From Fidelibacterota bacterium (GTDB lineage: Bacteria > Fidelibacterota > Marinisomatia > Marinisomatales > UBA1611), in assembly GCA_038281125.1 (NCBI GenBank), contig JAYNUL010000005.1:1-35182 (forward strand): a DNA stretch of 35,182 nt, read 5' to 3'. Shown piece by piece: positions 1 to 31,261 of the stretch. Both the position numbers and the translations under genes were made by a program. Each line of letters starts with the position of its first letter. Within the stretch, counting starts at the first letter, position 1. The notes under the pieces are model-generated. The model was not told the DNA's origin and searched no databases. It worked only from the letters and a program-made list of their open reading frames with translations.

Positions 1-986
1 GAACTTCTTATTGGGAATAACCAATAGCTATGAGTAGGGTTTGCAGAGCCATGAATATCACAATTTTTGAGGAGATTTTTTAGATAATCTCCGACCTCCT
101 TCCTTTGAGAAATATGATTTTCTTGCATTGAGGTTAATCTATAAAGCAAATACCTAAGGTGAGAGGTAGAGGGGTTTTTTCTAATTGCTTCAAAAAGATT
201 ATCATCTTGAACCATCCTAACAGATGAAATAATTGCCTTATCATAATCAATTTTTAAAAACCTACAAGCCAATATAAAAAAACCATAAATAAACGGATTT
301 GATAATATCTTCAGGGCAATATATTTCAATACTTTTTTTCGAAATTCAGCATTCTTTATTTTTGGATATTTAGAAATTTTATTATTGATTTCTTTTTTTA
401 ATTCCTTATCCATTGTAAATCCAATGGCCCCACCTAAAGCAGTAATGGATTTAATTGAACCAAAGCTGAACATACTAATATCGGTCTTTGACTGTTTTGC
501 ATATCCATTTATTCCATTGTATGCTTGTGCACAATCCTCGACAATTAGGACATCAGATCTTTTATCTAAAGCCTTATAAACAGGATCCATCTCCATTCTG
601 GATCCAAATAAATGCGCAACTACAATCATCACTGTTTTTTTTGATACTGCTTTATTCAGAGCTTCCTTTTTTAGCTGAAGCGTTTCCATATCCAAATCTA
701 TTGGGACAATTTTCAGGCCATGTGATTCAACAATCTTCACCATATCTGGAATCGTAATTCCAGTCATAATTACTTCGCTACCTTTTTTAAAATTCTTTGT
801 GAGGAGCAGAGAATCAAAAATTGTCCTTACAGATAGTCCCACAATAACATTTTCCATGGGCCATAAGTTTTCGATCTCATAAATTATTTTTCTTTTGTCA
901 AGCCTGGGAACAATTGTCATTGTGAGCGCTGACAAAATATTCCCAAATGAATAATCAAGCTTTTTTCTAGGATAGACTCTGATCAT
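1..986 (-). CDS. DegT/DnrJ/EryC1/StrS-like PLP-dependent aminotransferase (C-terminus lies beyond the left edge)
   Basis: This ORF is missing from the supplied track because it is open at the edge. My own translation starts at the ATG at 986-984 (MIRVYPRKKLDYSFGNILSAL...) and stays open to position 1. It contains ...LIVEDCAQAYNG... and ...SMFSFGSIKSITALGGA..., which resemble the DegT-family EDxAQA and SFxxxK (PLP-lysine) motifs. Confidence 0.7.
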   Translation of the reverse strand, partial: MIRVYPRKKLDYSFGNILSALTMTIVPRLDKRKIIYEIENLWPMENVIVGLSVRTIFDSLLLTKNFKKGSEVIMTGITIPDMVKIVESHGLKIVPIDLDMETLQLKKEALNKAVSKKTVMIVVAHLFGSRMEMDPVYKALDKRSDVLIVEDCAQAYNGINGYAKQSKTDISMFSFGSIKSITALGGAIGFTMDKELKKEINNKISKYPKIKNAEFRKKVLKYIALKILSNPFIYGFFILACRFLKIDYDKAIISSVRMVQDDNLFEAIRKNPSTSHLRYLLYRLTSMQENHISQRKEVGDYLKNLLKNCDIHGSANPTHSYWLFPIRS

Positions 987-20237: not shown

Positions 20238-22100
20238 ATGACAATGAAAGATATGGCATATATTCCTCTTTTTTGCATATTGATATTTTCTTGCACTGAA
20301 GATCCGATTACGATCCCAGAACCTGATACGACACCGCCTCAGGCAATTGTCCTCTTTCCAATTGATGGAGAACCAGTCTCCGGTGAAGTTGTTATAGAGG
20401 TCAGATCAGTTGATAATGATAAAGTGGATTCAGTCCAATTTCTTATTAATCAGAAAAGGGTGTTTACTAATTCCAGCCAGTCCAATGATATTTTCAAATA
20501 TACCTGGGATACTGAGGAAACAGTGATAGTAGATGGCGTTCAAGAAAAATTATATGCAGAGGATCAATTTCATTATATATCCGCAATAGCATACGATCCA
20601 ATTGGAAATAGTTATGCCTCTGTTACAACGAGAAGCAAAGTAGACAACATCGACAATGAACCACCAACTGCATTCTTCTTAAGCCCATTTGCTGGACAAT
20701 ATGTAAGCGATGTAGTCAATATAGAAGTAATTGCAACAGACAATGATAGCATTCAATATGTTAGCTTTTTCATCAATAATGTTTTACAAGGATATGTTCA
20801 AGAGTCTCCCTATTTATTTCCTTGGAATACGAATTTAGTTGAGAGCGGAAACTTTTATTCAATTCATGCAAATGTAAAAGATTTAAGTAATAATACTAAA
20901 ACAATAGCACCCATAAACGTTTTTGTTGATAATGGACTTGAGAGCGATGTAACGCCACCCACTGGAGCTATTGTTAGCCCTCCTGCAGGGCTAACTGTAA
21001 GTGGTGATGTACAGATAATTGTTAGCGCTAATGACAATCGCGCAATGAAAGAGGTAGCGTTATCAATCAATGGTACCTATATAACAACGATTGAGCAGCC
21101 ACCCTTTTTTTACAGTTGGGACACTTCTCTTGAGCAAGAAGATGCAGAGCATACAATAAGTGTAGTTCTTAAAGATCTTGCTGGTAATGAGACCCCTCTG
21201 AACCCTATATCAGTGGTGGTTGATAATATCGCGCCAGCAGATATAATTCCGCCAACTGTTATTATCATGAGTCCAGTTGCCGGACAAGAATTAAGCGGAA
21301 CCATAGACATAGAAGTTATTGCAAATGACAACACTGGAATAAATTATATAGAATATTATATTGATGGACAATCATATTCAGTTGATAGTATTCCCCCATA
21401 TATCCAAGAATGGGACACGGAAACTGCAGAAGATGATATGGAACATATCATTGCAGCCGTTGGTTATGATAATGAAGGTAATTCTTCGCTTGCGACACCA
21501 ATTGCGGTATACGTTGATAATCGGGATGACATTGCCCCATCTGGGCAAATTCAAAATCCAATTCCTGGACAAACTGTAAACGGAACTATTTCCATAGAAA
21601 TCATTGCAACCGATAATATAGAGGTTGATAATGTAGAACTTTCAATAAATGGTATACCCAGAGATACACTAAGTGATTTTCCTTATGTTTATGATTGGGA
21701 TACTAGCCAAGAAATTGACGATCAGAGTCATGTAATAAGTGCAGTTGTATCAGACACTTCGGGAAACATTGGTTTTATTCCTCCTGTAAGTGTAATTGTG
21801 GACAACCAGATTAATGACTCAACTCCACCAACAGGTCTTATCTCAAATCCTATTTCTGGTCAAACCGTAAGTGGAACAGTTGAAATCACCGTGCTAGCTC
21901 AAGACGATTACGGTATTGAAAATATTACATTTTTTATTGATGGAATAAATATATCAAATGATAATACAGCTCCTTATTCGTATGCATGGGACACTACAAC
22001 CCTTGAAAATGGTAGTGAGCATACCATTTCTGCATCCATTACAGATATCGTAGGCCATCAAACGATTCTTCAACCAGTTTTAGTAACCGTATCAAACTGA
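20238..22100 (+). CDS. surface lipoprotein made of six tandem Ig-like (Big_7-like) domains
   Basis: The lipobox is ILIFSC. It has six repeats of about 95-100 aa with the pattern PPxGxIxxPxxGQxVSGxVxIxVxAxDNxxIxxVxFxIxG......PYxYxWDTxxxxDxxHxIxAxxxDxxGN....PVxVxVDN. Confidence 0.75.
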   Translation: MTMKDMAYIPLFCILIFSCTEDPITIPEPDTTPPQAIVLFPIDGEPVSGEVVIEVRSVDNDKVDSVQFLINQKRVFTNSSQSNDIFKYTWDTEETVIVDGVQEKLYAEDQFHYISAIAYDPIGNSYASVTTRSKVDNIDNEPPTAFFLSPFAGQYVSDVVNIEVIATDNDSIQYVSFFINNVLQGYVQESPYLFPWNTNLVESGNFYSIHANVKDLSNNTKTIAPINVFVDNGLESDVTPPTGAIVSPPAGLTVSGDVQIIVSANDNRAMKEVALSINGTYITTIEQPPFFYSWDTSLEQEDAEHTISVVLKDLAGNETPLNPISVVVDNIAPADIIPPTVIIMSPVAGQELSGTIDIEVIANDNTGINYIEYYIDGQSYSVDSIPPYIQEWDTETAEDDMEHIIAAVGYDNEGNSSLATPIAVYVDNRDDIAPSGQIQNPIPGQTVNGTISIEIIATDNIEVDNVELSINGIPRDTLSDFPYVYDWDTSQEIDDQSHVISAVVSDTSGNIGFIPPVSVIVDNQINDSTPPTGLISNPISGQTVSGTVEITVLAQDDYGIENITFFIDGINISNDNTAPYSYAWDTTTLENGSEHTISASITDIVGHQTILQPVLVTVSN

Positions 22101-24421
22101 TGAATAAACAATATTTTTACTTGTCAATTGTATTGATGCTGTTCCTAAGCTGCGAGGGACCATTTTTTGATGTCCCAGCTGATGAAGATTCCATTCCTCC
22201 AACACTGACAATTACTTTCCCTGCAGATCAATCAATATTGTCTGATTCTGTTTTGATAAGCGCATATGCTTTTGATAACGTCGGTCTTGAAAAAGTTACT
22301 CTTTATCTTAATGATTCTATTGTACACGAAAGCACTGAAGGTCCCTATGAATATAATTGGTCTACTCTTGAGAATGCTGAAGATGAATTCCATACCATTA
22401 GGGCAAAAGCAGTTGACCTTGCTGGGAATGAGAATTTCACAAATACGATACAGGTACTAGTTGACAATCAGGATAATATAAGTCCAACTGGGGCATTAAT
22501 ATTCCCATTTACAGGTCAAATATTAACAGGTGAAATCACCATAATCTTGGAGGCAAATGACAACGATGAGGTAGCGCTTGTAACCTTATATATTGATGGC
22601 GATTCTGTAATGACTTATCAAGAACCACCCTATCGATATGACTGGAACACTCTTGAAGAAATAGATGATGTAATCCATACCATTCATGCTCACATCCAAG
22701 ACAATGCCGGCAACCAAATAACTCTGGGACCAATAAATGTAACCATTGATAATTATGAATCAGATGATAATATTGCCCCTACTGGAACCATAACCAGCCC
22801 TCCATCTGCTTCAACCGTATCTGGTACAGTAAATATTGAAGTTAATGCTTTTGACAATTTAAGAATGGGCCATGTTGATTTTATTATTGACGGTACCGCA
22901 GTATTTAGTGACTCCCTGCCCCCTTATTCCTTTAGTTGGAATACCTTGGTAGAGGCCGAAGACTCAGACCATGTGATAAATATTAACCTGTCTGATTCTG
23001 CAGGAAATACAACATCATTATATCCTGTCACTGTATTTGTTAATAATGTTGTTGATCCTGATGTTACCCCGCCAAATATTGTAATTTACGATCCTGCGGC
23101 AAATCAGACGGTTTCTGGCACAGTTACGTTTTTAACTATTGCTACAGATGACATTGCAGTTGACAGAGTAGAGTTCTATCATAATTACGAACTGGTATTT
23201 ACCGCTACATCCTACCCATTTAGCTATGATTGGAACTCAACACTTGCGGATGAAGATACAGAACACATATGGCATGCAAAGGCATTTGATACGAGTGGCA
23301 ATGAAGCACAAACTCAACCGATGGTGCTTATTGTTGATAATGTGGACAATATTCCACCAACTGGCTTTATTCTTCATCCCTATGCGGGGCAGGTAGTCAG
23401 TGGTGATATTGAGATTCAGGTTTCTGCGTCTGATAATGTTGGTGTTAATCAAGTTACATTCTTTTTAAATGGAAATATTTTATCTTCAGATTCACAGTCT
23501 CCATTTTCTTACAATTGGAATACAACTACTGCTAGCGAAGATGAAGAACATGTTCTTTATGCTAGCATTACCGATTTGCAAGGAAATACTACAAACCTTC
23601 CATCCATTTCAGTGACTGTAGATAATGATGACGCTCCAGAAAATGACATTACTCCCCCGTTTGTATCCATTATTACTCCATTATCTACTCAAACTGTGAG
23701 CGATACAGTAGTAATCACTGGTTTTGCAACTGATAATCATGAGGTTTCTCAGGTAATGTTTTATGTGAATGATCAATTGATTCAAACCGTTACTGATTCT
23801 CCTTTTACTGCATCTTGGATTACATATGATTTACCAAATAGTTCTGAACATATTCTTCAAATAACAGCAACAGATCCCTCTGGAAATCAGTCGAGTGCTC
23901 AACCTGTTTTGGTTACCGTTGTCAATGAATATATTGGTACAATAAACAATTTTACAGTTCTGGAAACTGAAAATACTATATCACTTAATTGGGATGCACC
24001 TAATAATGCTGAGTCATTTAAAATCTACAAGGATGGTAGTTTTTTGGTAGAAATCAGTGAACAAACCTTTGATGATGTTGTTGATCCAGGTGTAGAGCAT
24101 TGCTACGTAGTATCTGCAATAAATGGTGTAAATCTTGAGGGTCCGCTTTCTGAAGAGGAATGTGGTACGAGTCTTTATCCACCATCGCCAACACTATCTC
24201 TAGCGATTGATGGCTCCCTTGCAAATCTTTCTTGGACATCTGTATCGACTGCAGAATCATATAGACTATATCAGGATAATGCTTTTATAACAGAGCTAAC
24301 CGTTCTAAATCATACACTAGATATCGGAACTGGAACAAATACCTGCTTTAAAGTTACCGCGATCAATTCAATCGGAACTGAGAGCCTAGTATCTAATGAA
24401 GAATGTGGTGCAGGGTCCTAA
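22100..24421 (+). CDS. surface lipoprotein with six Ig-like (Big_7-like) domains and two C-terminal FN3-like modules
   Basis: The ATG overlaps the upstream TGA by 1 nt (tgATGa). The lipobox is LFLSC. It has six repeats of the same type as the upstream gene (PYEYNWST, PYRYDWNT, PYSFSWNT, PFSYDWNS, PFSYNWNT, PFTASW). Two modules of about 80 aa follow (SLNWDAP...YKDG...C...EECG). Confidence 0.75.
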   Translation: MNKQYFYLSIVLMLFLSCEGPFFDVPADEDSIPPTLTITFPADQSILSDSVLISAYAFDNVGLEKVTLYLNDSIVHESTEGPYEYNWSTLENAEDEFHTIRAKAVDLAGNENFTNTIQVLVDNQDNISPTGALIFPFTGQILTGEITIILEANDNDEVALVTLYIDGDSVMTYQEPPYRYDWNTLEEIDDVIHTIHAHIQDNAGNQITLGPINVTIDNYESDDNIAPTGTITSPPSASTVSGTVNIEVNAFDNLRMGHVDFIIDGTAVFSDSLPPYSFSWNTLVEAEDSDHVININLSDSAGNTTSLYPVTVFVNNVVDPDVTPPNIVIYDPAANQTVSGTVTFLTIATDDIAVDRVEFYHNYELVFTATSYPFSYDWNSTLADEDTEHIWHAKAFDTSGNEAQTQPMVLIVDNVDNIPPTGFILHPYAGQVVSGDIEIQVSASDNVGVNQVTFFLNGNILSSDSQSPFSYNWNTTTASEDEEHVLYASITDLQGNTTNLPSISVTVDNDDAPENDITPPFVSIITPLSTQTVSDTVVITGFATDNHEVSQVMFYVNDQLIQTVTDSPFTASWITYDLPNSSEHILQITATDPSGNQSSAQPVLVTVVNEYIGTINNFTVLETENTISLNWDAPNNAESFKIYKDGSFLVEISEQTFDDVVDPGVEHCYVVSAINGVNLEGPLSEEECGTSLYPPSPTLSLAIDGSLANLSWTSVSTAESYRLYQDNAFITELTVLNHTLDIGTGTNTCFKVTAINSIGTESLVSNEECGAGS

Positions 24422-24767: not shown

Positions 24768-24768
24768 G

Positions 24769-24841
24769 AGCGAGAGACGAGATTCGAACTCGCGACCCTC
24801 ACGTTGGCAACGTGATGCTCTACCAGCTGAGCTACTCTCGC
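24769..24841 (-). tRNA. tRNA-Gly (anticodon GCC)
   Basis: Reverse complement: acceptor gcgagag/ctctcgc, D arm gctc-agctggta-gagc, anticodon stem tcacg/cgtga with loop uuGCCaa, T arm gcgag-ttcgaat-ctcgt and discriminator U. No CCA is encoded. Confidence 0.9.
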
Positions 24842-24905
24842 ATTTTTGTTTTAAAATTGTTATGCGGTAACTGAAATTATGTAATGAAGACATGGATCAC
24901 AAAGC

Positions 24906-25349
24906 TCATTTTGGATAAAATTCAAGTAACCTTGATTTTGATTGGTGAACAATGTAACAGGCACCGAGAAATAGAAAATTTTCTACTATTTTTGACCATC
25001 CAACCACTTCGCCTTCTTTAAGTCCACATCCACAATCAATATTAAATCCCCTTAATATCGCTTGAGCAATCAAAACAATAAATAAAGCCAAAAGTCCTCC
25101 GCTAATAAATGTATTAGCATTTATATAAACTCCAAAAATAATGCCCAAACCAATAATTAATTCAAGCCATGGAAGAATTATTGCAATCGAATTTTCTAGT
25201 CCAAATGGGACAACATGGTAGTTAGATATATCTCGAGCAAATTTTCCAGGATCTAATATTTTATCATAGCTAGCATAAATGAAAATTAGGCCTAATAAAA
25301 TTCTTATAACTAAAATTAATACTGGATGAATTTTATTCATTATAGTCAA
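24906..25349 (-). CDS. MauE/DoxX-family redox-associated membrane protein
   Basis: 147 aa with four hydrophobic helices. Motifs are IFIYASYDKILDP..F, LPWLELIIGLGIIFG and the characteristic NIDCGCG. It overlaps the rhodanese gene by 17 nt. Confidence 0.8.
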   Translation of the reverse strand: MTIMNKIHPVLILVIRILLGLIFIYASYDKILDPGKFARDISNYHVVPFGLENSIAIILPWLELIIGLGIIFGVYINANTFISGGLLALFIVLIAQAILRGFNIDCGCGLKEGEVVGWSKIVENFLFLGACYIVHQSKSRLLEFYPK

Positions 25350-25821
25350 TATCTAGGCCTGATTCACTCCATGTTTTCCAACCACCCTTGAAGACGAGGA
25401 TATTATTAAATCCATATTCTTGCAGGTCATAGGCAAGATCTTCACTTGATCCACAATCATCATCGCTACAATAGATAACAAATCCCCTATCAAAACCAAT
25501 CAGTGTTGCTATCTCATCGGATAGTGCATCAGTATCATCATTATTAATTGCACCCGGAATAAAACCATCTTCCAAGTATTCCTCCGAGCGCGCGTCTACA
25601 AAAAGGGTACCATTTTTCTGGAGGTTCATCGCAGTCTCTAAATTAATTTCCCTTACGCTGGGTACATCTATATTTAACTCGATATTATTAGTGCTGTTTA
25701 TCTTTTCCATTGGTTTTGCTAACCAGGAAATACCACCATCCCTTAAAGCATTAAAACTGGCACCACACAAAACCGAGATTCCTGTTATAATTAAAACTTG
25801 TTTAAATAATTTTATGTCCAA
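25333..25821 (-). CDS. membrane-anchored rhodanese-like domain protein
   Basis: 162 aa with an N-terminal TM anchor. The rhodanese-like region reads LFVDARSEEYLEDGFIPGAIN, with an active-site-loop-like VIYCSDDDCGSSEDLA and FKGGWKTW. Confidence 0.8.
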   Translation of the reverse strand: MDIKLFKQVLIITGISVLCGASFNALRDGGISWLAKPMEKINSTNNIELNIDVPSVREINLETAMNLQKNGTLFVDARSEEYLEDGFIPGAINNDDTDALSDEIATLIGFDRGFVIYCSDDDCGSSEDLAYDLQEYGFNNILVFKGGWKTWSESGLDIDYNE

Positions 25822-25830
25822 TCGCTGAAC

Positions 25831-27012
25831 CTAGTGATCGTGCCCTGCATGACGATTATTTTTGTTTTTATTTCGGGCTACTGGTTTCTTTTTTGGAGCC
25901 AGAGAGTCACAGGTTTTCACTGAAGAGGTAACAAAAGCCAATAGCTCTTCATCATCTCCAACTTTATTGTTTAGTGGATTTGTTTGAAATTTTAGAGTGT
26001 TTACTGCTGAGGCAATCACTTGCTCTGAGTTTTTTAAATCTTCCCTATATTTTTTTATAAGATTTAGTACATTTTCTTGATCTGCATAAATTTCTTCAAG
26101 ATTCTTTTCTGGGTCTTTTTTCTGGAGCTTATCAAATCTTTTTTGTACTGATTTAATCTTTTTCTCTTCGGCTGATATATCAACAAATGGCACACCTTTT
26201 TCTTTGACATCCAAGGTTAAGGTCATAAGGTATTTCCCTTGCTTGCCGCAGGAATACATAAATGGTCCATTTTCTTTTTGAGGACTATTTGTTCGGGACA
26301 TGCTTGTGTTGCCGCTTGTAACTATAAAATCAATATCTGGCAGCTTTTCAGGTAACCCATTTTGAGAAGACCTACTAGCATTCACTAGCGCGACGATGAT
26401 ATCTACTTTGTTTTCTAATTCTTTTGCATACCGATTACATGATTCAATAAAATCATCTGACTTAATGAATTCCATTGTATCCGGAATAAGATCAGTAGCT
26501 CCTATTACCCCGATTTTGAGCTCTCCTCTTTCAAAAATAATATAAGGATCAAATAGAAGTTGACCTGATTTGGAATCTTTTAGATTCGATGAAATAAAAG
26601 GAATATCTGTTTTCTTTACCATTTCCTGTAGAAACGATAAACCATTTAGTACCTCATAGTGCCCAACATTTATTACATCGCATCCAACTTTCTGAAATCC
26701 CTCCATTATTGCATTCGCACGGAAAATCTCAGAATTTTTATTGGTCGCATCAATGTTCTTTGTACTAAAAAACAGATCACCTGCATCCAAGATCAATGGA
26801 TCGATCCCGGCATCTCTCATTTCTTTGATTTTAACATATTTTCTAGACAGACCGCCTAGGGGATTCTTCTTTCAGCCACAAGGGTCTAACTGGCCATGAA
26901 CTGATCCTGACATTACCATAGTAACAGTACCATGGGCTGAGGTTTTTGTACAAGACCACATGGTCATGAACATCATTATAAATAAAAAGTAACTCTTAAT
27001 TGATAATTTCAT
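25831..27012 (-). CDS. 5'-nucleotidase/UshA-like (calcineurin-fold) lipoprotein, putative selenoprotein with an in-frame UGA at codon 47
   Basis: The track ORF (25831-26820) starts mid-domain at MRDAGIDPLILDAGD and has no signal peptide. The same frame continues upstream through a single TGA (26872-26874) to the ATG at 27012: MKLSIKSYFLFIMMFMTMWSCTKTSAHGTVTMVMSGSVHGQLDPCG[TGA]KKNPLGGLSRKYVKIKEMRDAG.... This restores a lipoprotein signal (MWSC) and the first metallophosphoesterase block (..VHG..). A SECIS-like hairpin follows the TGA. The ATG lies 6 nt after the yciH stop. Confidence 0.6.
26843..26859 (-). promoter_or_regulatory. candidate bacterial SECIS hairpin
   Basis: The mRNA reads UGA AAG AAG AAU CCC CUA GGC GGU CUG UCU AGA. 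The 6-bp stem is CUAGGC / GUCUAG (one G-U pair) with loop GGUCU. Counting the U of UGA as 1, the loop occupies positions 22-26, which puts G23 and U24 where I recall them in the E. coli fdhF SECIS (..GCA GGU CUG CAC..). Confidence 0.5.
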
Positions 27013-27018
27013 TTGTTT

Positions 27019-27342
27019 TTATCCACCACTAAGTTTCACATCGTACCCTTTTTTTGAAAGGATTTCTTTGACTATGTCGCGCTTATTGCCTTGTATAAGT
27101 ATCCTGTTTTCTTTGAATGAACCTCCAACTCCGCATCTTTTTTTTAGCTCTTTTGTCAAATTGACCATTTTTTCATCTTCATGAACCAAGCCTTTAATAA
27201 CGGTAACTATTTTCCCACCGCCTCTCCTATCAAGGTGAAGGCGTACTTTCTGTTGAGATGGTTTTGGATGATGGATATCGGTTAATTCATCATCTCTGTA
27301 AGAACCATTATCAGTTGAGTATACTATTCTAGAGTTGGACAT
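27019..27342 (-). CDS. yciH: SUI1/YciH-family translation initiation factor-like protein
   Basis: 107 aa. ...VRLHLDRRGGGKIVTVIKGL...LKKRCGVGGSFKENRILIQGNKRD.V...L...GY.VK..GG is the classic SUI1/YciH pattern. Confidence 0.85.
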   Translation of the reverse strand: MSNSRIVYSTDNGSYRDDELTDIHHPKPSQQKVRLHLDRRGGGKIVTVIKGLVHEDEKMVNLTKELKKRCGVGGSFKENRILIQGNKRDIVKEILSKKGYDVKLSGG

Positions 27343-29575: not shown

Positions 29576-31261
29576 TTATTTGACCATTGATAGCTTTATT
29601 GTTTCAGTAATACTGCCTGAAGAGAGCCTAAAATAATAGACTCCTGCACTTACTAAAAGGCCGTCTTGATTCTTCCCGTTCCAGATGACAACTTTTTTTC
29701 CAGCAGATTGGTTTTCCCTGAACAGGGTGGTAATTTTATTACCTCTAATATCATAAATTACTCCTTCAACTAATACTTCATCTGCCAACTGATAGGTAAT
29801 TGTTACTATTGGATTAAATGGATTTGGAAATGCATTATTTATTCTATATTCATCAAAATAAATTTTGTCTTCTATGTTTACATTTTCGCAATTCGATGTA
29901 TTTTGATCACCCTGATTTCCATCAATACAATATGGTAATTCTGAACACAAATTATTGCCGGAGATATTAAAACTTGATTGATCATCCCAGTCCAGTTCAA
30001 TATTACAGATTTCATCAGGAAGGTATCCGAATAGATTATTATTCTGTAATCTTAATCGTTCAAGATTTTGGAGATTATTAATGTTTATAGGAATCTCTCC
30101 AGTCAAATCATTATCATTTAGGTAAAGGTGGATGAGGCCTGATAATTCAAATAGCTCAGGAGGAATAATATCATAAAATAGATTTTGATGAATATAGAAA
30201 TTTTTTAGTTCTACCATATTCCCGATATCACTGGGTATTCTACCTGAAATTTGATTATTGAATACATTGAAATATTCAAGATTAATTAAGTTGCCAAGTG
30301 AATTAGGCAAAACTCCACTTAAGGAATTAACGTATAGCTTTAATTCTTTAAGATTAACCAGATTTCCAATTTCAGCAGGTATGGCTCCCGTTAAATCATT
30401 TTGAGAAAGATTTAAGTACTCTAAGGCCACCAGATTTCCAATTTCAGCAGGTATGGCTCCTGTTAAATCATTTTGAGAAAGATTTAAGGATACTAGATTG
30501 GTAAAATTCCCAATATTTTGACTAATGTTTCCAGTGACTCCAGAGTTTGATAAATCTAACTCTAATACATCATGTGCATAATAGAGTGAGTCAAATAGTT
30601 CAAAAACACCTTGGCATTCAACAATTTCCTGATTTCCAATGAATGCCTCCAAACAATCGGGGTAAGGAGGACAAAAAGAGTTATTGTCAATGTTAAAGTT
30701 TAATGGGTTACTAAAACCGATTCCAGATTCACAAATATTATCGGTAATGATACCTGTAAACTGATTATCATTCGCATGGAATTCAGATAGAAACATCAAC
30801 TGGCCTATCTCAAAAGGAAGTTCTCCGCTTAGTTGGTTATGGTCAAGAGATATTTCAACAAGTCCTGTCATATTTCCGATGCTACTTGGTACGGTTCCAC
30901 TTAGCTGATTATGTGAAAGATCCATCGACATTAAATTAGTTAGACTTCCTAATTCTTCAGGTATCCCTCCTGTTAATGAATTATGGCTTAAGTTGAATCC
31001 TAAAAGCGTTTCCATCGATACAATTTCATGGGGAATAATTCCCTCGAGGTTGTTATTGGAAAGATCTAAAAACATTAAATTTGAAAGTTGTGCAATTGTA
31101 TTTGGTATACCGCCAGAAAGTCCTTGTCCTGAAAGGTTCAGCTCATATGTGATATCAATCTCATAACAATTATCCCACAGTTCAATCTCTCCATCGTTAC
31201 ATTGCGCTAACAACCATTGGAATGAAATACATAAAAGTAATATGAAAGGATTTTTTTTCAT
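29576..31261 (-). CDS. leucine-rich-repeat protein (24-residue plant-type LRRs) with a T9SS C-terminal sorting domain
   Basis: 561 aa with a signal peptide. There are two LRR blocks of units LxxLxxLxLxxNxLxGxIPxxIGNL, each flanked by Cys-containing caps (FCPPYPDC, LCSELPYC). The C-terminus, FPNPFNPIVTITYQL...IYDIRGNKI...GVYYFRL, is the T9SS type-A sorting-domain pattern. Confidence 0.8.
   Translation of the reverse strand: MKKNPFILLLCISFQWLLAQCNDGEIELWDNCYEIDITYELNLSGQGLSGGIPNTIAQLSNLMFLDLSNNNLEGIIPHEIVSMETLLGFNLSHNSLTGGIPEELGSLTNLMSMDLSHNQLSGTVPSSIGNMTGLVEISLDHNQLSGELPFEIGQLMFLSEFHANDNQFTGIITDNICESGIGFSNPLNFNIDNNSFCPPYPDCLEAFIGNQEIVECQGVFELFDSLYYAHDVLELDLSNSGVTGNISQNIGNFTNLVSLNLSQNDLTGAIPAEIGNLVALEYLNLSQNDLTGAIPAEIGNLVNLKELKLYVNSLSGVLPNSLGNLINLEYFNVFNNQISGRIPSDIGNMVELKNFYIHQNLFYDIIPPELFELSGLIHLYLNDNDLTGEIPININNLQNLERLRLQNNNLFGYLPDEICNIELDWDDQSSFNISGNNLCSELPYCIDGNQGDQNTSNCENVNIEDKIYFDEYRINNAFPNPFNPIVTITYQLADEVLVEGVIYDIRGNKITTLFRENQSAGKKVVIWNGKNQDGLLVSAGVYYFRLSSGSITETIKLSMVK
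30358..30488. repeat. 72-bp-period tandem duplication inside the LRR gene
   Basis: 30358-30416 and 30430-30488 are identical at 58 of 59 nt (single c/t difference). This encodes the duplicated unit LNLSQNDLTGAIPAEIGNLV twice. The period of 72 bp equals one 24-aa LRR. Confidence 0.85.

What the first reader, a model, noticed from the sequence alone, without database searches (positions are those of the whole stretch)
26843..26859. Hairpin downstream of the UGA places G23/U24 exactly as recalled for the E. coli fdhF SECIS
Counting from the U of UGA as 1, nucleotides 16-32 fold as CUAGGC-[GGUCU]-GUCUAG. The loop bases G22 G23 U24 C25 U26 G27 are, as I recall the fdhF element (UGA CAC GGC CCA UCG GUU GCA GGU CUG CAC C), the same letters at the same positions. 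In E. coli, G23 and U24 in the apical loop at this spacing are the SelB contact. An exact match in spacing and loop sequence is unlikely by chance next to an in-frame UGA. The stem is short (6 bp with one G-U) and I saw no obvious bulged U.
Basis: partly seen in the sequence, partly recalled or inferred. Interest (0 to 1): 0.7.

Follow-up and report, generated by a model that had tools for sequence, protein, structure and literature searches.

The report
Selenocysteine insertion hairpin, UshA-like gene
The short hairpin is very probably a real bacterial selenocysteine-insertion signal (SECIS) that makes an in-frame UGA encode selenocysteine in a UshA-like protein of a marine Marinimicrobia bacterium, and both the signal type and the protein family are already known, so this is a correct but ordinary find.

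Summary
On the minus strand, an in-frame TGA (26874..26872) interrupts a 393-codon gene (27012..25831). Nucleotides 16-32 after it fold as CUAGGC[GGUCU]GUCUAG. G22-G27 matches the E. coli fdhF element letter for letter at the same spacing.

Folding energy alone is unremarkable (-6.8 kcal/mol, z = -0.8). The comparative evidence is decisive:
- All 43 Marinimicrobia species orthologues that cover the site keep the TGA.
- In the 42 aligned sequences, nt 19-27 (GGC GGU CUG) never vary, although Gly and Leu codons elsewhere in the gene vary freely.
- The only stem pair made of two wobble positions (18:30) covaries: G-C, A-U, G-U, U-A, never unpaired, with at least 15 changes on a tree.
- A Cys-containing sister clade in the same phylum (CGC instead of CGU) lacks both the invariance and the hairpin.
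- Distant TGA-containing relatives carry either the same GGU loop or a second hairpin about 10 nt further downstream.

The protein belongs to the known "UshA-like, CxU" selenoprotein family (NCBIfam NF041198; Global Ocean Sampling (GOS) selenoproteome). Two things are untested: whether this genome has selA/B/C/D, and whether SelB binds the hairpin. The element lacks the fdhF bulged U. Verdict: a genuine SECIS, a new member of a known kind, of low to moderate interest.

The parts
25831..27012 (-). Complete selenoprotein gene: 393 codons including one in-frame UGA, with stop TAG at 25833..25831. It encodes a UshA-like (5'-nucleotidase N-domain fold) protein with a P-C-G-U motif.
   Evidence: Translation. 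NCBIfam NF041198 UshA_like_PCGU, E = 4.6e-65, 220 bits against a cutoff of 275. PDB profile hits to the UshA/5'-nucleotidase N-domain, E ~ 1e-15. AF2 model of orthologue P0059 (pLDDT 82) matches E. coli UshA by Foldseek, E ~ 1e-17. Database gene calls are truncated 329-aa ORFs or carry W at the UGA.
26872..26874 (-). UGA codon read as selenocysteine (codon 47).
   Evidence: TGA is present at this position in all 43 Marinimicrobia species loci that cover it, plus the window. The reading frame is conserved on both sides, with synonymous variation. More distant homologues have Cys (CGC) at the same position. TGA otherwise ends 11 of the 31 long ORFs in the window.
26872..26880 (-). C-G-U motif (TGT GGC TGA), the putative redox or metal-binding site.
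   Evidence: Sequence. PCG[U/C] is invariant across the family. The family is listed as 'CxU' in PMC2398784 and PMC13188914.
26843..26859 (-). SECIS hairpin, nt 16-32 after the U of UGA: stem 16-21/27-32, loop G22 G23 U24 C25 U26.
   Evidence: MFE structure. 96.2% of cells are paired across 39 distinct orthologues, against <=54% for slid controls. RNAalifold gives the consensus stem 17-21/27-31. Pair 18:30 is GC/AU/GU/UA and never unpaired, with >=15 changes on a tree and Fisher p = 2e-6.
26848..26856 (-). Nucleotide-invariant core GGC GGU CUG (nt 19-27). It contains the apical loop (26853..26849) and G23/U24 (26852, 26851).
   Evidence: Identical in 42 of 42 sequences (codon entropy 0), whereas other Gly and Leu codons of the same gene have 1.6-2.2 bits. 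The same Gly-Gly-Leu codons vary freely in the Cys-form clade and in the distant Sec-containing relatives whose hairpin lies further downstream.
26950..27012 (-). Predicted signal peptide ending in a lipobox-like ...MWSC (Cys21), which suggests an exported lipoprotein.
   Evidence: Inference from the sequence and from the similar hydrophobic N-termini ending in Cys in full-length orthologues. No signal-peptide predictor was run.
25333..25821 (-). Downstream rhodanese-domain gene (Cys form), part of the conserved gene module.
   Evidence: Pfam PF00581, E = 2e-12. Translation. Found immediately downstream in about 39 of 44 species loci.
24906..25349 (-). Downstream MauE/DoxX-family membrane protein gene, part of the conserved module.
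   Evidence: Pfam PF07291, E = 1.9e-28, and PF07681. Synteny is conserved.
27019..27342 (-). Upstream SUI1/YciH-family gene, a conserved neighbour on the same strand.
   Evidence: Pfam PF01253. NCBIfam YciH. Present upstream in 42 of 44 loci.

Best explanation
The hairpin is a bacterial selenocysteine insertion sequence (SECIS) lying inside the coding region, 11-12 nt downstream of an in-frame UGA. The gene encodes an exported UshA-like protein of a Marinimicrobia bacterium.

Inferred mechanism, from the E. coli and Moorella paradigm: as the ribosome approaches the UGA, the 5-6-bp mini-helix presents the apical loop GGUCU. The specialised elongation factor SelB, loaded with GTP and Sec-tRNA(Sec), binds the loop through G23/U24. 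It delivers Sec-tRNA(Sec) to the UGA in the A site. The UGA is then read as selenocysteine, giving a 393-residue protein with a C-G-U motif rather than a 46-residue fragment.

Shown here:
- the UGA and the reading frame are conserved;
- Sec and Cys alternate at this position across homologues;
- the loop and upper stem are under RNA-level constraint, with compensatory changes;
- that constraint is present only in genes that carry TGA.

Inferred, not shown: SelB binding, the presence of selA/B/C/D in this genome, and actual selenium incorporation.
For: 1. TGA is conserved in 43 of 43 species-level orthologues that cover the site. The flanks HGQLDPCG and KKNP.GGLSR are invariant as protein but vary synonymously.
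2. Nt 19-27 (GGC GGU CUG) are invariant in 42 of 42 sequences, although GGC and CUG are minority codons in this gene and other Gly and Leu codons have 1.6-2.2 bits of entropy.
3. The stem shows covariation. Pair 18:30 is GC 21, AU 11, GU 6, UA 1, with none unpaired. 96.2% of cells are paired against <=54% for slid registers, and 0 of 500 shuffles reach the observed covariation score. There are >=15 state changes on an NJ tree, and Fisher p = 2e-6.
4. Negative control: the Cys-form clade, also from Marinimicrobia (YDCGCPKNPLGGLARK), uses GGG/GGA/GGT/GGC freely and has no conserved hairpin (33 of 54 cells paired).
5. Fifty-eight distant TGA-containing relatives keep GGC GGU at the same spacing with a re-registered stem. 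Pair 18:31 is GC 41 / UA 17 with none unpaired, and the change crosses the Arg codon families CGN and AGR.
6. The published bSECIS criteria for loop, stem, loop G and spacing are met (PMC13188914).
7. The six letters G22-G27 and their spacing match fdhF.
8. The family is a recognised selenoprotein family (NF041198; PMC2398784 and PMC13188914).
9. TGA is an ordinary stop elsewhere in the window.
Against: - The window's hairpin is weak (-6.8 kcal/mol, z = -0.8). It misses the -7.5 kcal/mol threshold of the bSECIS model. 32 of 42 orthologues pass it.
- There is no bulged U like fdhF U17, which is a SelB determinant in E. coli (PMC8659212).
- No tRNA-Sec or sel gene lies in the 35-kb window.
- I found no paper that documents Sec use in Marinimicrobia.
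- Rfam has no matching model.
- Nothing here demonstrates selenium incorporation.
Confidence: 0.9

Rival explanations
1. The TGA is a genuine stop or an inactivating mutation. The locus would then be a 46-codon leader ORF plus a separate 329-codon gene, as database gene callers annotate it, and the hairpin would be coincidental.
For: Most database entries are 329-aa ORFs that start at the Met downstream of the TGA. The hairpin energy is not distinguishable from shuffles.
Against: The TGA and the frame across it are conserved in 43 of 43 species. The upstream HGQLDPCG is invariant as protein but varies synonymously, which means it is translated in the same frame. Homologues with Cys read straight through the same position. 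The N-terminal part supplies the signal peptide and the first beta-strand and motif I of the fold.
Confidence: 0.02
2. TGA is reassigned in this lineage (code 4 Trp or code 25 Gly). The hairpin would then be irrelevant to decoding.
For: Several public gene calls translate this codon as W, for example P0059, P0061, P0063 and P0101.
Against: Eleven of the 31 ORFs of >=100 aa in the window end in TGA. Only this TGA is flanked in frame by long open stretches on a coding strand. The homologous residue in relatives is Cys, not Trp or Gly. Reassignment would not explain RNA-level invariance and covariation that are restricted to TGA-containing genes.
Confidence: 0.01
3. The conserved hairpin is an RNA element with another role, such as ribosome pausing for export, an RNase or sRNA target, or a DNA-level motif. 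It would only happen to sit next to a Sec codon whose SECIS lies elsewhere.
For: The stem is short. A facultative lower stem (9-13/35-39) exists in some orthologues only. In about 50 distant relatives the strongest hairpin sits about 10 nt further downstream, so the family tolerates different positions.
Against: No other conserved structure is found within nt 1-48 of the Marinimicrobia clade. The element co-occurs strictly with TGA and is absent from the Cys clade of the same phylum. Its loop sequence and spacing are those that SelB recognises in the fdhF paradigm (PMC8659212). Covariation argues for RNA pairing rather than a DNA motif.
Confidence: 0.05

Closest known systems
E. coli fdhF SECIS (formate dehydrogenase H, Sec140)
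   Same: Both are located in the coding region directly 3' of the UGA. The apical loop starts at nt 22. G22 G23 U24 C25 U26 G27 are identical at identical positions. Both have a short upper mini-helix spanning roughly nt 15/16-31/32.
   Different: fdhF has a 4-nt GGUC loop closed by A21-U26, a bulged U (U17/U18), and a long lower stem reaching back to the UGA (-14.9 kcal/mol for 46 nt). This element has a 5-nt loop closed by C21-G27, no bulge and no conserved lower stem, and folds at only -6.8 kcal/mol. The host gene, protein family and phylum are unrelated.
Generic bacterial SECIS consensus (bSECIS model of Zhang and Gladyshev, as summarised in PMC13188914)
   Same: Loop of 5 nt (model 3-9). 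Upper stem of 6 bp (model 4-16). GG at loop positions 1-2 followed by U. 18 nt between the UGA and the loop (model 16-37).
   Different: The MFE of this copy is -6.8 kcal/mol, slightly above the model's -7.5 cutoff. Most orthologues pass, with a median of -8.6.
UshA-like (seleno)protein family: NCBIfam NF041198 UshA_like_PCGU, and 'COG0737 UshA-like, CxU' of the GOS marine selenoproteome (PMC2398784)
   Same: P-C-G-U motif near the N-terminus. 5'-nucleotidase/UshA N-domain homology. Marine origin. Cys-containing homologues exist.
   Different: The protein scores 220 bits, below the 275-bit equivalog cutoff, and covers only model positions 2-396 of 519. It is a shorter, divergent Marinimicrobia clade with its own C-terminal helical region and an H-x-G-H-D-H tail. 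The canonical GNHE catalytic motif aligns to G-H/K-Y-E.
SoxB thiosulfohydrolase (TIGR04486), and DoxX-rhodanese (SseA) thiol-homeostasis complexes
   Same: The SoxB model gives a weak NCBIfam match to this protein. The neighbouring genes are a rhodanese and a MauE/DoxX membrane protein. I recall a DoxX-rhodanese pairing from mycobacterial DoxX-SseA.
   Different: The SoxB score is only 61 bits against a cutoff of 550. The dimetal ligands are not conserved. No Sox genes are nearby. Any link to sulfur chemistry is inferred from gene context only.

Membership tests
Bacterial SECIS (bSECIS consensus model) | In-frame UGA within a conserved ORF, with the hairpin immediately downstream in the coding region | tested here: met
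   The frame is conserved on both sides of the TGA in 43 orthologues.
Bacterial SECIS (bSECIS consensus model) | Apical loop of 3-9 nt and upper stem of 4-16 bp | tested here: met
   5-nt loop and 6-bp stem. A 5-bp core is conserved in all orthologues.
Bacterial SECIS (bSECIS consensus model) | At least one G in the first two loop positions, typically G[G/U] | tested here: met
   The loop is GGUCU, and G22 G23 U24 are invariant in 42 of 42 sequences.
Bacterial SECIS (bSECIS consensus model) | 16-37 nt between the UGA and the apical loop | tested here: met
   18 nt (nt 4-21).
Bacterial SECIS (bSECIS consensus model) | MFE <= -7.5 kcal/mol | tested here: inconclusive
   The window copy gives -6.8 kcal/mol with ViennaRNA. 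32 of 42 orthologues are <= -7.5, with a median of -8.6. bSECISearch's own energy calculation was not available.
Bacterial SECIS (bSECIS consensus model) | Structure conserved with compensatory changes in TGA-containing orthologues and absent from Cys-form homologues | tested here: met
   (covariation). (the Cys clade has no invariance and no hairpin).
Bacterial SECIS (bSECIS consensus model) | Binds SelB and directs Sec insertion; the genome encodes selA, selB, selC and selD | not testable with these tools
   No sel gene or tRNA-Sec lies in the window.
E. coli fdhF-type SECIS | G23 and U24 exposed in the apical loop at fixed spacing from the UGA | tested here: met
   The same letters sit at the same positions as in fdhF.
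E. coli fdhF-type SECIS | Bulged U17 in the 5' strand of the mini-helix (a SelB determinant; PMC8659212) | tested here: not met
   The stem 16-21/27-32 is continuous with no bulge, and the same holds in the orthologues.
E. coli fdhF-type SECIS | Extended lower helix pairing nt 4-14 with nt 32-41 | tested here: not met
   Candidate lower stem 9-13/35-39: the two weakest pairs form in only 17 of 39 and 22 of 39 sequences, there is no real covariation, and it is absent from the window copy.
UshA-like (seleno)protein NF041198 | HMM score at or above the curated cutoff (275 bits) | tested here: not met
   220.2 bits, E = 4.6e-65, model positions 2-396 of 519.
UshA-like (seleno)protein NF041198 | P-C-G-U (CxU) motif, with Cys-containing homologues | tested here: met
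   The family is listed as CxU in PMC13188914 and PMC2398784.
UshA-like (seleno)protein NF041198 | UshA/5'-nucleotidase N-terminal metallophosphatase fold | tested here: met
   PDB profile hits to UshA, E ~ 4e-15. The AF2 model of orthologue P0059 matches UshA by Foldseek, E = 8e-18. The model is of a 54%-identical orthologue, not of the window protein itself.

The most novel reading that the evidence does not exclude
The gene would be the selenium-dependent core of an uncharacterised exported module: UshA-like C-G-U protein, rhodanese and MauE/DoxX membrane protein. The module is conserved across the abundant ocean phylum Marinimicrobia, for which I found no published report of selenocysteine use. 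The degenerate dimetal site plus the Sec would carry out a sulfur, selenium or thiol redox reaction rather than nucleotide hydrolysis. The family would also be a natural experiment in SECIS evolution. It has two alternative hairpin positions (loop at +22 or at +32) for the same Sec codon, and a Sec-to-Cys switch within one phylum.
Probability: 0.3. Interest if true: 0.45.

Novelty: new member of a known kind. Interest (0 to 1): 0.27.

Why it matters
In practical terms, the gene is mis-annotated in public data. It appears as a 329-aa truncated ORF, or with Trp at the Sec site, in hundreds of marine metagenome entries. Recognising the SECIS restores the signal peptide and the C-G-U motif.

In biological terms, the result indicates that Marinimicrobia (SAR406), a major deep-ocean and oxygen-minimum-zone phylum, decode UGA as Sec in a conserved, probably periplasmic, protein linked to a rhodanese and a DoxX/MauE protein. 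That points to a role for selenium in their sulfur or thiol chemistry.

The contrast between Sec and Cys clades, and the two SECIS registers, make a clean comparative data set for studying SECIS constraints.

None of this changes the current understanding of Sec decoding. The SECIS type and the selenoprotein family were described in 2005-2008 and are curated in NCBIfam.

Tried and rejected
- Rfam, at gathering threshold on the whole window and at E <= 10 on 26780..26900, gave no SECIS family hit, only a chance miRNA match. Rfam seems to have no general model for this bacterial SECIS type, so this is uninformative.
- Pfam found no domain in the read-through protein. NCBIfam was needed to place it.
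- The protein-pattern scan of metagenomes failed. The tool back-translated the mis-called 'W' as TGG. I replaced it with a DNA pattern that contains TGA.
- ARAGORN called a 77-nt 'tRNA-SeC' in locus L078, next to a distant family member. Rfam found no tRNA there, so I treated it as a false positive.
- No tRNA-Sec was found in any of the 44 species loci.
- A lower stem (nt 9-13 with 35-39) predicted in many orthologues is not conserved, does not covary and is absent from the window copy. I rejected it as part of the element.
- Thermodynamic significance was tested and is not significant. The case rests on comparative evidence.
I modelled orthologue P0059 instead. The Sec loop (residues 40-52) has low confidence, so I drew no conclusion about the geometry of the C-G-U site.
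- Literature searches for Marinimicrobia with selenocysteine or selenoprotein found nothing relevant.

Full report
**1. The observation**

The finding lies on the minus strand. Reading 27012..25831(-) gives a 393-codon frame with a single internal stop, TGA at 26874..26872. The context is MKLSIKSYFLFIMMFMTMWSC...SGSVHGQLDPCG*KKNPLGGLSRKY.... Counting the U of UGA as 1, nt 16-32 correspond to 26859..26843 and read CUAGGC-GGUCU-GUCUAG. This is a 6-bp stem, including one G-U pair, with a 5-nt loop. RNAfold returns exactly this hairpin as both the MFE and the centroid structure of nt 1-55 (-6.8 kcal/mol).

A 46-nt extension of it matches fdhF in 5419 of 5426 complete E. coli genomes. The listed records match at 100%, and 5413 of the 5420 matching records match at >=99%. 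RNAfold places the fdhF loop at G22-C25. G22 G23 U24 C25 U26 G27 are therefore the same letters at the same positions in both elements.

By energy the hairpin is not special: z = -0.80, and 42 of 200 shuffles fold as well. Position and sequence together are rare, however. Among 1608 TGA triplets on both strands of the window, 22 have GGT at +22..24 and 46 have a stem of >=5 bp closing at nt 21. Only this TGA has both. It is also the only TGA in the window with long in-frame open stretches on both sides on a coding strand.

**2. The gene**

Pfam finds nothing in the read-through protein. NCBIfam places it next to NF041198, 'UshA_like_PCGU, UshA-like (seleno)protein' (E = 4.6e-65, 220 bits, cutoff 275, model positions 2-396 of 519). 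Weaker hits go to SoxB, UshA and CpdB. A profile of the family hits the N-terminal metallophosphatase domain of E. coli UshA and CD73 in the PDB (E ~ 1e-15). An AlphaFold model of the 54%-identical orthologue P0059 (pLDDT 82, pTM 0.79) matches UshA by Foldseek (E = 8e-18).

In the alignment with UshA, the catalytic GNHE motif corresponds to G-H/K-Y-E, and motif I (DxH) reads S-x-H. The canonical dimetal site is therefore degenerate. The N-terminus looks like a lipoprotein signal peptide (inference from the sequence).

The family is a recognised selenoprotein family. 'COG0737, UshA-like, CxU' was among the major families of the Global Ocean Sampling (GOS) selenoproteome, with 76 Sec and 92 Cys sequences (PMC2398784). 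NF041198 is listed in recent reviews (PMC13188914 and PMC9312934).

**3. Orthologues**

A database search found several hundred close relatives. Most are annotated as 329-345-aa ORFs that start just after the TGA. A few 'full-length' entries carry W at that position, which looks like gene calling under code 4.

A scan of one genome per GTDB species returned 44 loci, nearly all Marinimicrobia/Neomarinimicrobiota MAGs and SAGs, at 34-73% protein identity. All 43 loci that cover the site have TGA in PCG*K..[PQ].GG. Upstream of the TGA, the codons of HGQLDPCG are invariant as amino acids but vary synonymously (GAT/GAC, all four CCN, TGT/TGC, all four GGN). The upstream part is therefore translated in the same frame as the downstream part.

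TGA is otherwise a normal stop in this genome. It ends 11 of the 31 ORFs of >=100 aa.

**4. RNA-level constraint**

In the 42 aligned sequences, codons +6 to +8 (GGC GGT CTG, nt 19-27) are identical in every one. Other Gly and Leu codons in the same gene show 1.6-2.2 bits of codon entropy, and GGC and CTG are minority codons there.

The proposed stem is paired in 96.2% of cells, against 22-54% when the 3' strand is slid by 1-3 nt. None of 500 column shuffles reaches the observed covariation score. RNAalifold independently returns the stem 17-21/27-31.

The one pair in which both partners are free wobble positions is 18:30 (Leu third position with Ser third position). It reads G-C 21, A-U 11, G-U 6 and U-A 1, with none unpaired among 39 distinct sequences. 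A18 always goes with U30 (Fisher p = 2e-6). On an NJ tree of the downstream protein, the pair state changes at least 15 times. When Ser becomes Pro (UCN to CCN), the G20-U28 wobble becomes G-C.

A lower stem (9-13/35-39) that RNAfold adds in many orthologues is not conserved and is absent from the window copy.

**5. Specificity for TGA**

An exhaustive profile search showed that more distant homologues carry Cys at the same position (CGC), or 'W', which is TGA mis-called. One Cys clade (YDCGCPKNPLGGLARK) is itself from Marinimicrobia.

I retrieved DNA for eight of its proteins, which gave nine distinct sequences. The Gly-Gly-Leu codons vary freely: GGG/GGA/GGT/GGC, then GGT/GGA/GGG, then six different codons at the third position. 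Only 33 of 54 cells of the stem can pair, and the MFE structures are inconsistent.

The invariance is therefore not caused by the protein motif or by codon bias. It goes with the TGA.

**6. Wider family**

A DNA-pattern scan of metagenomes for C-G-TGA-x3-P-x-G-G-L-A-R returned 120 loci from soil, sediment, freshwater and marine samples, about 108 of which are genuine family members. Two architectures appear.

- **Type A** (58 distinct sequences) keeps GGC GGU at nt 19-24 with a 6-nt loop and a re-registered stem 16-21/28-33. It is paired in 96.8% of cells, against <=50% for slid controls. Pair 18:31 is G-C in 41 sequences and U-A in 17, with none unpaired. The switch couples the wobble base of codon +5 to the choice between CGN and AGR arginine codons.
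- **Type B** (about 50 sequences) lets the Gly codons vary. It has instead a strong 7-9-bp hairpin at about nt 24-42 with a 3-nt GGA/GGC loop at nt 32-34.

Both fit the bacterial SECIS model. The window's element is a 5-nt-loop variant of type A.

**7. Comparison with known elements**

The published bSECIS constraints are a 3-9-nt loop, a 4-16-bp upper stem, G in the first two loop positions, 16-37 nt of spacing, and MFE <= -7.5 kcal/mol (PMC13188914). All are met except the energy for this copy (-6.8). The median for orthologues is -8.6, and 32 of 42 pass.

Relative to fdhF, the loop letters and spacing are identical. The bulged U17, which a review reports as a SelB determinant in E. coli together with G23 (PMC8659212), is missing. 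So is the long lower helix. The element works like an fdhF-type SECIS in its loop presentation, but it is not a member of that narrow type.

**8. Gene context**

The order YciH/SUI1, UshA-like (Sec), rhodanese, MauE/DoxX, tRNA-Gly(GCC) is conserved in most of the 44 species loci. Rhodanese and MauE homologues also occur near distant Sec-type genes, in 15 and 24 of the 120 metagenome loci respectively. They do not occur next to the Cys clade.

This suggests an exported sulfur or thiol redox module. That is inference from context only.

**9. What is not shown**

No sel gene or tRNA-Sec lies in the window or in the fetched loci. I could not scan Marinimicrobia genomes for the machinery, and I found no paper linking the phylum to selenoproteins. 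SelB binding and selenium incorporation remain inferred.

**10. Verdict**

This is a genuine bacterial SECIS in a Marinimicrobia member of the known UshA-like CxU selenoprotein family. It is a new member of a known kind rather than a new mechanism. It is useful for re-annotation and as a comparative data set, but it would not surprise a specialist.

Noticed in passing
window 24768..27342 (-); loci L001-L044: The gene order YciH/SUI1, UshA-like selenoprotein, rhodanese, MauE/DoxX, tRNA-Gly(GCC) is conserved in most of 44 Marinimicrobia species. Rhodanese and MauE homologues also sit near distant Sec-type family members, but not near the Cys-form clade. This hints at a selenium-dependent sulfur or thiol module.
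   Followed up: partly
loci L045-L164 (metagenome), nt 24-42 after the TGA: About 50 distant UshA-like PCGU genes use a different, much stronger SECIS-like hairpin: 7-9 bp with a 3-nt GGA/GGC loop at nt 32-34. They let the Gly-Gly codons vary. One selenoprotein family therefore has two SECIS registers for the same Sec codon.
   Followed up: partly
proteins P0138, P0272-P0358; loci L165-L187: A Cys-containing clade (YDCGCPKNPLGG) of the same family also lives in Marinimicrobia, in a different gene context (PepSY_TM or peptidase M3 upstream). Both Sec and Cys forms therefore exist within one phylum.
   Followed up: partly
proteins P0206, P0211, P0221, P0258, P0169, P0238: Some distant Cys-form homologues are fused to C-terminal regions with several CxxCH motifs (multihaem cytochrome-like), or are duplicated in proteins of about 1200 aa. 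This is consistent with an electron-transfer role for the family.
   Followed up: no
window 25834..25851 (-), C-terminus of the selenoprotein: There is a conserved His-rich C-terminal tail, H-x-G-H-[DN]-H. H391 and H393 are nearly invariant in orthologues. It may be a metal-binding motif.
   Followed up: no
window 26872..26874; database entries P0001-P0120: Public gene calls for this family are systematically wrong. They are either truncated to 329-345 aa starting after the TGA, or translated with W at the Sec codon.
   Followed up: yes
window 20238..24421 (+) and 29576..31261 (-): Two large tandem proteins are made of bacterial Ig-like (Big_7) repeats. A leucine-rich-repeat protein carries a weak, sub-threshold match to the Por/T9SS C-terminal sorting domain (22 bits against a cutoff of 27), which would fit an FCB-group organism.
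   Followed up: no
locus L078 372..448 (-): ARAGORN calls a 77-nt 'tRNA-SeC (tca)' about 760 nt from a distant UshA-like Sec codon. Rfam finds no tRNA or tRNA-Sec there, so it is probably a false positive.
   Followed up: yes
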